This document shows, one piece after another, positions 37,810 through 39,113 of a stretch of 64,000 nt of DNA. The position numbers and the translations under genes are program-made. Positions within the stretch are counted from its first letter, which is position 1. Every line of letters begins with the position of its first letter. Location: NCBI GenBank assembly GCA_051251855.1, contig JBPOGI010000001.1, positions 256,001 to 320,000 of the forward strand. Reading direction: 5' to 3'. Source of the stretch: Roseibacillus sp. Lineage in GTDB: Bacteria; Verrucomicrobiota; Verrucomicrobiia; Verrucomicrobiales; Akkermansiaceae. The notes under the pieces were generated by a model, which saw nothing but the letters and a program-made list of their open reading frames with translations, was not told the origin of the DNA and did no database searches.

Positions 37810-38085
37810 TTAATCCATTTTCCGCATTTCGTCTTCGAGACGCTCGGCGAGCCACTGCTTGATCATGGACTGATAGTTCAGGAACCGTGAGCGGGCGATG
37901 CGCTTGATGCGCGAAAGCATGCGAGGGTCGAAGCGAAGGGTGATAGTGGTCGATTCGCGGGAATCGGGGGCGTGAAGGGAGCCTTGCATCAGACGCGGAG
38001 CTAAATCGTGGTTGCTCCAAAATTTGGCTTCGTCTTCTTCTTCTTCGAAATCGGGGATTTCGTCCCAGCTGGTGATGGTCTTCAT
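37810..38085 (-). CDS. BrnA/CopG family antitoxin
   Basis: IPDF..EEDEAKFW..HD, ITLR, YQSMIK.WL motifs; adjacent to BrnT. Confidence 0.85.
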   Translation of the reverse strand: MKTITSWDEIPDFEEEEDEAKFWSNHDLAPRLMQGSLHAPDSRESTTITLRFDPRMLSRIKRIARSRFLNYQSMIKQWLAERLEDEMRKMD

Positions 38086-38364
38086 TTACTTGAACTCGGC
38101 GAACTTGCGTTCGTAAAAGGTTTGCTCGTCATCACTGGCGTTGCGGGCTGCAACGACGCGGACTTTTTTGCCATCTGTTGAGAAGGCGAGGAAAAGGTAG
38201 CGGTTGGAAATCGACTTTCCAATGGCATAGAATCGAGACTCGCCATCGGAACGGTCGTTCTCGGGCAAGAGTCGTACCGCGAAGGGGTCTTCTAAAGCCT
38301 CCTCAATTTCGCGGGGTTTCATCTCCTTGGTGTCGAAGGAGACATCTAAGATATCCAGTTCCAT
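38086..38364 (-). CDS. BrnT family ribonuclease toxin
   Basis: EIEEAL, GESRFYAIG, VRVVAAR.A...E...Y motifs. Confidence 0.85.
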   Translation of the reverse strand: MELDILDVSFDTKEMKPREIEEALEDPFAVRLLPENDRSDGESRFYAIGKSISNRYLFLAFSTDGKKVRVVAARNASDDEQTFYERKFAEFK

Positions 38365-38656
38365 GTGTGCAAGTGAAAGGTGCGGTTGGATTGCCCACTC
38401 TTCAAGGCAAAATGAGGACAGTGGGAAAGGAAGAAGGGTGACTGGCGAGAGTTGGAGGGAAGGCGCTTTTTCTCAAAGAGCCGTCTTTTCTTCTCTTATT
38501 GGGCTGTTCTGCGAGGGCGGAAGGTCCTGTAGACCCTTTCGCTACTGACATTTTGAAGGGTGGTTGCCAAACTTTTCGGTTGTCAGATGTTCTTTTTGGG
38601 GTCACTTTAGCAACGCGCAAGGTTGTCTTTGCGTTTGAACTAACCAAAGGAAAATT

Positions 38657-38971
38657 ATCGCAGGACCGCCAAGAAGACGAGGAGGAGGAGGCCGCAGACG
38701 CGGGAGAGGACGTGGAGGTCCTGGATTCAAGAAGAGTAATATCCGTGAAAAGGATGGCGAGGCGAAAGCAGTCGAGATTGAGGGCACTGTAAGTGCGGTA
38801 TTAGCAGGGACAATGTTCAAGGTTGAGTTGTCGAGTGGACACGAGGTTTTGGCCCACATTTCGGGTAAGATGCGGAAGAGGTTTATTCGATTGGTAATTG
38901 GCGACAAAGTCAAGATGGAGATGTCTCCTTACGACACCTCCAAGGCTCGGATCGTTTATCGGTTGGGCTGA
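38657..38971 (+). CDS. infA: Translation initiation factor IF-1 with RGG-rich N-terminal extension; non-canonical ATC (or ATT 38654) start
   Basis: Hand translation ...[68 protein letters not shown]; in-frame stop at 38636; AAGGA upstream. Confidence 0.93.
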
Positions 38972-38998
38972 GTTTTCTCTCATTACCTTTTTTCTTTG

Positions 38999-39026
38999 AG
39001 GCCTGCGATTACGCAGGCCTTTTTTT
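38999..39026 (+). terminator. Rho-independent terminator after infA
   Basis: AGGCCTGCG-ATTA-CGCAGGCCT followed by a T run. Confidence 0.9.
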
Positions 39027-39113
39027 GTGGATGGTAGGTAGGATAATTTTCGAGTTCTGCGAGATTTGAACTGACTGGGTACTATTCGGCGAGTAGCACT
39101 AGCGGTAGAGCAT

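What the first reader, a model, noticed from the sequence alone, without database searches (positions are those of the whole stretch)
38636..38815. infA appears to start at a non-canonical ATC/ATT codon
Seen: between the in-frame stop at 38636 and the first ATG (38813) there is no ATG, GTG or TTG. That ATG lies inside the IF-1 fold, after the conserved VEIEGTV strand. A Shine-Dalgarno-like AAGGA (38647-38651) precedes ATT-ATC-GCA. Known: infC uses AUU for autoregulation, and IF1 assists IF3 in start-codon discrimination. Inference: an analogous fidelity feedback loop on IF1, which gene callers would miss or truncate.
Basis: partly seen in the sequence, partly recalled or inferred. Interest (0 to 1): 0.75.

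Follow-up and report, generated by a model that had tools for sequence, protein, structure and literature searches.

The report
IF1 gene starting at AUC codon
In this bacterium and most of its family, including gut Akkermansia, the gene for translation initiation factor IF1 appears to begin at the rare codon AUC instead of AUG, a trick known from the sister factor IF3, which probably lets the cell's start-codon proofreading set how much IF1 is made.

Summary
Confirmed. The genome's only infA has no in-frame ATG/GTG/TTG between the stop at 38636 and an ATG inside the fold (38813). The start is inferred to be ATC 38657, not ATT 38654. It is no sequencing error: 61 of 92 family genomes carry ATC/ATT/ATA at this position, 43 of them have no canonical codon before the fold, and the other 31 have ATG in the same register. 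The tail evolves as coding sequence. In this genome 37 of 37 other housekeeping genes have canonical starts; only infC and infA do not. A tree needs three changes, most simply one gain and two returns to ATG. In all 9 Akkermansia-like genomes infC begins with GTG, while infA keeps ATC/ATT in 6 of them. Most likely mechanism (inferred, 0.6): IF1/IF3 proofreading represses the AUC start, giving negative feedback on IF1. A static throttle is the main rival. Initiation at this codon and the feedback are untested. Not found in ten literature searches; RefSeq has one such start, and an earlier scan note saw the same clade.

The parts
38615..38634 (+). Leader stem-loop upstream of the ribosome-binding site (weak; probably a 5' hairpin, not specific to the non-canonical class)
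   Evidence: 8-bp hairpin in the local fold; z -0.8 in this genome; z<=-1.5 in 23 of 63 ATH-start and 12 of 41 ATG-start relatives versus 14 of 120 background genes
38636..38638 (+). In-frame TGA, 6 codons before the ATC; excludes an upstream in-frame start
   Evidence: sequence
38647..38651 (+). Shine-Dalgarno-like AAGGA, 5 nt before ATC
   Evidence: predicted pairing <= -5 kcal/mol in 40 of 64 ATH-start infA, 4 of 44 canonical-start infA and 38 of 517 background ATG genes of this genome; anti-SD sequence confirmed in 4 of 5 complete relatives
38654..38656 (+). ATT, not the start; supplies the conserved U at position -1
   Evidence: codon -1 is variable (ATT 20, GTT 17, CTT 7 and others, of 64), but base -1 is T in 62 of 64 versus 106 of 517 background genes
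38657..38659 (+). ATC, inferred start codon of infA
   Evidence: ATC/ATT/ATA in 61 of 92 family genomes, ATG in the same register in 31; RefSeq WP_343125203.1 begins with Met in this register
38660..38764 (+). 35-codon Arg/Gly/Pro-rich N-terminal tail of IF1, ending in an acidic stretch
   Evidence: lengths vary only in whole codons; pairwise substitutions at codon positions 1/2/3 = 1118/1014/2536 over 48 sequences of 7 genera; the tail is also present in ATG-start relatives
38765..38968 (+). IF1 OB-fold domain
   Evidence: TIGR00008 91.8 bits; a profile matches 12 solved bacterial IF1 sequences at E <= 1.4e-19
38813..38815 (+). First in-frame canonical codon (ATG); starting here would give a 52-aa protein lacking the first strand of the fold
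38657..38971 (+). infA coding sequence, 104 codons plus TGA; single copy
38998..39031 (+). Intrinsic-terminator-like hairpin plus T run after infA (suggests a stand-alone transcript; the upstream gene is divergent)
   Evidence: 2 sites found in the region, 1.1 expected by shuffling

Best explanation
infA is translated from AUC 38657. Initiator fMet-tRNA (anticodon CAU) decodes AUC with a third-position mismatch. An unstructured A-rich region, a U at -1, a purine at +4 and, in most genera, a Shine-Dalgarno sequence help it, in a lineage whose genes rarely use one. The product is a 104-aa IF1 with a basic tail. AUC is a codon that the IF3/IF1 checkpoint rejects, so IF1 synthesis should rise when that checkpoint slackens (too little IF1 or IF3 per 30S subunit) and fall when it is saturated: negative feedback like that on infC, placed on IF1. 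Shown by sequence comparison: the lack of canonical starts, conservation and register of the codon, coding nature of the tail, specificity to infA and infC. Established elsewhere: IF3 rejects AUC/AUU/AUA and IF1 supports this. Inferred: initiation at this codon (about 0.95), the feedback, and the role of U-1 pairing with A37 of the tRNA (idea recalled, not from a call).
For: No canonical codon before the fold in 43 of 92 family genomes; ATH in 61 and ATG in register in 31. 18 of 18 IF1-linked metagenome matches are ATC and in frame. 37 of 37 other housekeeping genes of this genome have a canonical codon at or before the HMM start, and infC and infA do not; five ribosomal-protein genes in 30 relatives are canonical in 148 of 148 genes found. 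All three IF3-rejected codons are used (ATC 53, ATT 6, ATA 5 of 64), including ATA, which is only 2808 of 61042 Ile codons in long ORFs here. The trait is old: three changes on a 30-genome tree, 0 of 500 shuffles as low. IF1 and IF3 antagonise locking with non-canonical ligands (PMC4611024 passages); infC AUU/AUC is the target of IF3 autoregulation (PMC5499595 passages).
Against: No proteomic, ribosome-profiling or reporter data were available. 31 family genomes and 13 of 16 genomes of other families of the order use canonical infA starts, and 3 Akkermansia-like genomes have canonical starts on both infA and infC, so the loop is dispensable. 24 of 64 ATH starts lack an SD. A weak start kept for dosage would leave the same comparative signature. 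I found no paper showing that IF1 level itself derepresses AUC starts in vivo (one search returned unrelated papers). 20 of 108 start calls were corrected by hand. Kin are not independent, so the counts overstate the evidence.
Confidence: 0.6

Rival explanations
1. Static throttle: AUC is the real start but only keeps IF1 low; the SD and U-1 tune it, and there is no meaningful feedback.
For: AUC/AUU/AUA start at 1-2% of AUG in E. coli reporters (10.1101/063800 passages). pcnB is limited by an AUU start (reference title seen). The lineages that returned to ATG mostly lack an SD (4 of 44 have one), as if two designs reach a similar output.
Against: UUG, GUG or a poor context would also throttle, yet all 64 non-ATG tail-start cases but one GTG use the IF3-rejected class, and the only other such gene among 39 with a family match is infC. 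Adding an SD to a weak codon is an odd way to lower output.
Confidence: 0.25
2. The AUC start is read by another signal: stress (ppGpp, cold, starvation), or IF1's own Arg/Gly-rich tail binding its leader, rather than IF1/IF3 concentration.
For: ppGpp and growth medium lower the competitiveness of AUU/AUA mRNAs, and IF3 discrimination is temperature-sensitive (PMC5499595 passages). A modest leader hairpin recurs, and the tail is basic and low in complexity.
Against: The hairpin and the tail are also present in ATG-start lineages, and no Rfam family matches the leader. This rival can coexist with the best explanation.
Confidence: 0.1
3. Translation starts elsewhere: at an internal canonical codon in the fold, at another near-cognate codon, or by frameshift from an upstream frame; the Ile is just a conserved residue.
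For: In 22 of 64 ATH genomes a canonical codon lies 2-4 codons into the fold and would give a 64-66 aa protein, as some database records have it. In 6 a canonical codon lies within the tail.
Against: That codon is not conserved (in 20 of 64, including this window, the first one is 16 codons into the fold). The tail evolves as coding sequence right up to the ATH codon, and upstream stops lie 6 codons before it in 3 of 9 genus members. Open upstream frames with a canonical start are no commoner in ATH genomes (28 and 33 of 64) than in canonical ones (28 and 28 of 44). ATG occupies the same register in 31 relatives.
Confidence: 0.04
4. Sequencing error, private mutation or pseudogene.
For: The genome is an assembly and its raw reads were not checked.
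Against: 9 of 9 genomes of the genus and 15 distinct metagenome sequences have ATC; it is the only infA in the assembly; the fold is 97% identical to close relatives.
Confidence: 0.01

Closest known systems
infC (IF3) AUU/AUC start codon with translational autoregulation (PMC5499595 passages; Butler 1987 and Brombach and Pon 1987 seen only as reference titles)
   Same: An initiation-factor gene starting at an IF3-rejected AUH codon, conserved over a long lineage; infC of this genome also starts at ATA.
   Different: The gene is IF1, not IF3; the codon is mostly AUC; it is confined to two families of one order; base -1 is U (62 of 64) whereas infC has C (22 of 27 auto-called); regulation untested.
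E. coli pcnB AUU start (10.1101/063800 passages)
   Same: A chromosomal gene limited by a non-canonical start.
   Different: pcnB is not part of the proofreading machinery, so no loop is possible; here the product acts at the checkpoint that reads the codon.
Chlorella chloroplast infA with UUG start (PMC9845219 passages)
   Same: An infA gene with a weak non-AUG start; changing it to AUG raised translation strongly.
   Different: UUG is accepted by IF3 as canonical (PMC4611024 passage), so it is not a fidelity sensor of the infC type.
eIF1 and eIF5 autoregulation through start-codon stringency (PMC3326321, listing and start of abstract; Ivanov 2010 seen as a reference title)
   Same: Fidelity factors whose own mRNA reads out the stringency they impose.
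   Different: Eukaryotic scanning, AUG context and uORFs; eIF1 is not the IF1 homologue (that is eIF1A; PMC2731904 abstract start).
eIF1A N-terminal tail
   Same: The IF1 orthologue eIF1A carries an N-terminal tail before the OB fold (PMC2731904 abstract start); its basic Lys/Arg/Gly-rich make-up is recalled, not from a call.
   Different: Homology not shown: one eIF-1A chain (2oqk) matched the profile at E 0.0075 with no stretch significant on its own; the likeness may be compositional.

Membership tests
Bacterial IF1 (infA, TIGR00008) | Scores above the curated family cut-off | tested here: met
   91.8 bits versus 61.15
Bacterial IF1 (infA, TIGR00008) | OB fold like solved IF1 structures | tested here: met
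   By sequence: 12 solved IF1 sequences at E <= 1.4e-19. The AlphaFold model was too poor to use (pLDDT 49).
Bacterial IF1 (infA, TIGR00008) | About 72 residues, start 3-7 codons before the first strand | tested here: not met
   104 aa with a 35-residue tail; tails of 26-169 codons in all 92 family genomes; 48 of 50 loci from outside the order have the short form
infC-type autoregulated non-canonical start | Start codon AUU, AUC or AUA with no usable canonical start | tested here: met
   (comparative inference, not a measured start)
infC-type autoregulated non-canonical start | Codon conserved across a lineage and rare in other genes | tested here: met
   61 of 92 family genomes; 37 of 37 other housekeeping genes canonical
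infC-type autoregulated non-canonical start | The gene encodes IF3 | tested here: not met
   It encodes IF1; infC lies on another contig
infC-type autoregulated non-canonical start | Protein N-terminus or initiating ribosome mapped to the codon | not testable with these tools
   No proteomics or ribosome profiling; only contigs could be laid
infC-type autoregulated non-canonical start | Translation derepressed when the factor is limiting; an AUG swap abolishes control | not testable with these tools
   Needs reporter and titration experiments
eIF1A-like N-terminal tail | Sequence homology of the tail to the eIF1A tail | tested here: inconclusive
   2oqk_A E 0.0075, 0 significant stretches; the TIGR00523 match covers residues 33-102 only

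The most novel reading that the evidence does not exclude
In this branch of Verrucomicrobiales IF1 has become a self-tuning fidelity factor: its AUC start senses IF1 itself, and its Arg/Gly-rich tail acts at start-codon selection as the eIF1A tail does. In the Akkermansia muciniphila group the sensor has passed wholly from IF3 (infC now starts at GUG) to IF1 (AUC, strong SD, about 100-residue tail), so the textbook infC loop is replaced by an infA loop in a culturable gut bacterium that also has an A29-U41 initiator tRNA.
Probability: 0.25. Interest if true: 0.82.

Novelty: new variant of a known kind. Interest (0 to 1): 0.63.

Why it matters
Only a few natural AUU/AUC/AUA starts are confirmed in bacteria, and infC is the one known to use such a start as feedback. 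A second initiation factor with a conserved start of this kind would give a natural in vivo readout of how much IF1 contributes to start-codon proofreading, which a 2026 preprint still calls mechanistically unclear (10.64898/2026.06.26.734871 passages). The family offers all four combinations of canonical and non-canonical starts on infA and infC, and includes culturable genera, so the question is directly testable. It also corrects the annotation of an essential gene, whose database records are mostly truncated or wrongly extended, and exposes an IF1 tail of 26-169 residues that I found no paper on.

Tried and rejected
ATT 38654 as the start: rejected, the codon varies and sits too close to the SD. 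Frameshift from an upstream frame or a conserved uORF: no enrichment. An altered initiator anticodon: the initiator-type tRNA has CAT, and no tRNA-Ile gene was found in the assembly, so nothing can be said of those. Changed genetic code: ATC is the commonest Ile codon here. Leader RNA family: two chance-level Rfam hits; the 101-nt region folds no better than shuffles (z 0.55); the leader hairpin is not specific to ATH starts. Promoter scan: 0 sites. AlphaFold model uninformative (pLDDT 49); no fold search was run. RNA evidence on the Akkermansia-like locus L198: all 4 runs laid were contigs. One RNA-library contig (X14) covers the fold and nearly all the tail but stops 9 nt short of the ATC; two others span the whole stretch and may be DNA, with no changed letter at the codon. 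This is one study and cannot show a transcript start. A metagenome scan for ATH before a generic short IF1 N-terminus found 0 matches and had no positive control, so it says nothing about other phyla. My first automatic start rule picked upstream codons or nothing in 20 of 108 genomes; these were reset by homology to genus mates or by inspection. The first ribosomal-protein start check was flawed by queries that included upstream residues and was repeated. The 80 named records were left out of all counts because they may duplicate the handle genomes; one partial second hit in G080 was dropped. Earlier-findings look-ups by sequence, by place and by one word set returned nothing.

Full report
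Observation. The window reads TGA (38636), six codons, ATT (38654), ATC (38657), GCA, and then an open frame to TGA 38969. No ATG, GTG or TTG lies in frame before 38813. The frame from ATC gives 104 residues; residues 37-103 match TIGR00008 (infA) at 91.8 bits against a cut-off of 61.15, and ATG 38813 is residue 53, inside the fold. This is the only infA in the assembly. A BrnT/BrnA-like pair lies upstream on the other strand, and a terminator-like hairpin follows the gene, so infA probably stands alone. The closest named records are Akkermansiaceae/Verrucomicrobiales; that placement is inferred from record titles.

Survey. I searched 94 genomes of the window's family and 16 of other families of the order; 92 and 16 gave an infA locus. 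Without any judgement about starts, 43 of the 92 have no ATG/GTG/TTG between the upstream stop and the fold. Starts were called by a rule, with 20 of 108 reset by hand. They are ATC 51, ATT 5, ATA 5 and ATG 31 in the family, and 3 ATH (all in one sister family) against 13 canonical in the other families. The state is uniform within genera except one. ATG-start genera have their ATG in the same register, at the head of the same kind of tail. Outside the order I read 50 loci from 48 of the 74 genomes searched: all have a canonical codon before the fold, 48 of them within 3-7 codons. A metagenome scan with the third base of the codon left free gave 26 matches; 18 lie before IF1 (15 distinct), all 18 read ATC in frame, and 16 have no canonical codon before the fold. 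Among the 80 named records, ATC starts occur in records titled Roseibacillus, Oceaniferula and Akkermansia muciniphila, and the Luteolibacter-titled records have ATG; these records were not added to the counts.

Which codon, and is the tail translated? The codon before the ATH is one of 12 different codons in 64 genomes, while base -1 is T in 62. The start is therefore ATC 38657. Between start and fold lie 26-169 codons rich in Gly, Arg and Pro. Within seven genera the lengths differ only by whole codons, and substitutions fall mostly on third positions (1118/1014/2536; 48 sequences, pairwise and not independent). The first canonical codon downstream is not conserved in position, and upstream frames offer no frameshift route.

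Specificity. In this genome I scanned 40 stop-to-stop frames chosen from the translation gene clusters. One had no family match; 37 have a canonical codon at or before the HMM start, and the two exceptions are infC and infA. Five ribosomal-protein genes in 30 relatives are canonical in 148 of 148 genes found, one by inspection. Predicted SD pairing of -5 kcal/mol or better occurs in 40 of 64 ATH-start infA, 4 of 44 canonical-start infA and 38 of 517 background ATG genes. This fits a report that Akkermansia is SD-scarce (PMC10783764 passages). The anti-SD used was recalled, then confirmed in 4 of 5 complete relatives; this assembly shows no 16S 3' end. Against a simple story, 24 of 64 ATH starts have no SD.

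History. A tree of five ribosomal proteins from 30 genomes (793 columns) needs three changes of state; 0 of 500 shuffles need as few. Rooted on a genome of another family, the simplest reading is one gain at the base of the family plus its sister family (node support 94/91, not starred) and two returns to ATG. The tail is older than the codon, since ATG-start families of the order have it too.

infC in the same genomes. Of 30 genomes, 29 have ATA/ATC/ATT at the homologous infC start (27 by rule, 2 by inspection) and one has GTG. Ten more were read: all 9 genomes of the Akkermansia-like genus have GTG-CC at the head of infC, while 6 of the 9 keep ATC/ATT on infA with a strong SD and a tail of 90-169 codons. 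The other three are canonical at both genes. In three of the nine an ATH codon also lies two codons after the GTG, so these infC calls are less secure than the infA calls. A RefSeq protein labelled A. muciniphila is 98% identical over the tail of one of the six. All four combinations of start types thus exist in one family.

Mechanism. Established: AUU, AUC and AUA are rejected by IF3; IF1 supports this at complex locking and at 50S docking (PMC4611024 passages); infC uses such a codon for autoregulation (PMC5499595 passages; PMC9723500 passages); AUC initiates with Met at 1-2% of AUG in E. coli (10.1101/063800 passages). Inferred: the AUC start makes IF1 synthesis depend inversely on the activity of that checkpoint (0.6). 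Whether IF1 or IF3 is the sensed variable cannot be told from sequence. A static throttle (0.25) and stress- or tail-mediated control (0.1) remain open. Lineages without any non-canonical start show that the loop is not essential.

Annotation and literature. Of the best 120 database homologues, 69 extend past the Ile from an upstream codon, 6 begin with Met in this register and 45 are other, mostly ATG-start forms (regex classes). That search favours long forms; cluster members include truncated 60-82 aa records. RefSeq WP_343125203.1 (165 aa) and a few GenBank MAG proteins begin at this register, so NCBI's pipeline sometimes picks it; I could not see their DNA. Ten full-text searches listed no paper on a bacterial infA with an AUH start or on this tail. 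The nearest is the UUG start of Chlorella chloroplast infA (PMC9845219 passages). Limits: the library lacks most subscription journals, the term 'infA' matched unrelated words except, I read passages and not whole papers, and I opened no supplements, where start-codon tables could list this case. The arXiv survey by Gvozdjak and Samanta was seen only as a reference.

Verdict. A real, lineage-wide non-canonical start on IF1: a new variant of the infC kind, with the start well supported by comparison and the feedback untested. Interest 0.63.

Noticed in passing
L314-L321 and L033 (infC of 9 Akkermansia-like genomes): infC appears to start at GTG in 9 of 9, against the statement that infC uses AUU or AUC in all bacteria (PMC5499595 passage); the sister genus keeps ATC.
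   Followed up: partly
G000:C1:941782-941858 and 35 of 42 genomes searched: The initiator-type tRNA has A29-U41 instead of the first of the three G-C pairs in the anticodon stem, in 38 of 38 matches across the phylum. PMC5389676 (passages) names this variant for alpha-proteobacteria and some mycoplasmas only. It does not track the infA start type.
   Followed up: partly
L312 (G096): 16S rRNA 3' end with AUCUCC in place of ACCUCC in three copies, a variant anti-Shine-Dalgarno sequence.
   Followed up: no
L029, L206, L214, L197-L203: Very long low-complexity Gly/Pro/Arg/Ser IF1 tails (90-173 codons) in Akkermansia-like genomes and one genome of another family.
   Followed up: partly
L256 (G132) and L262 (G151): Second infA-like copies with Ser/Thr-rich N-terminal extensions in two genomes of another order.
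   Followed up: no
window 37810-38364 (-): BrnT/BrnA-like toxin-antitoxin pair divergent from infA; the antitoxin matches NF047399 below cut-off, and the toxin-like ORF has no NCBIfam match (label recalled).
   Followed up: no
L308:5454-6287 (G000:C6): infC follows thrS but is followed by a HAD-like gene, not rpmI-rplT; IF3 has a C-terminal extension of about 97 residues beyond the HMM match.
   Followed up: no
L303:16933-17682 and L304:686-1429 (G000:C6): A non-ribosomal ORF of about 230 codons lies between rpsS and rplV, and L22 carries a C-terminal extension of about 135 residues.
   Followed up: no
G000:C1:329166-329259 (window end is C1:320000): A tRNA-SeC gene is predicted just beyond the window.
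   Followed up: no
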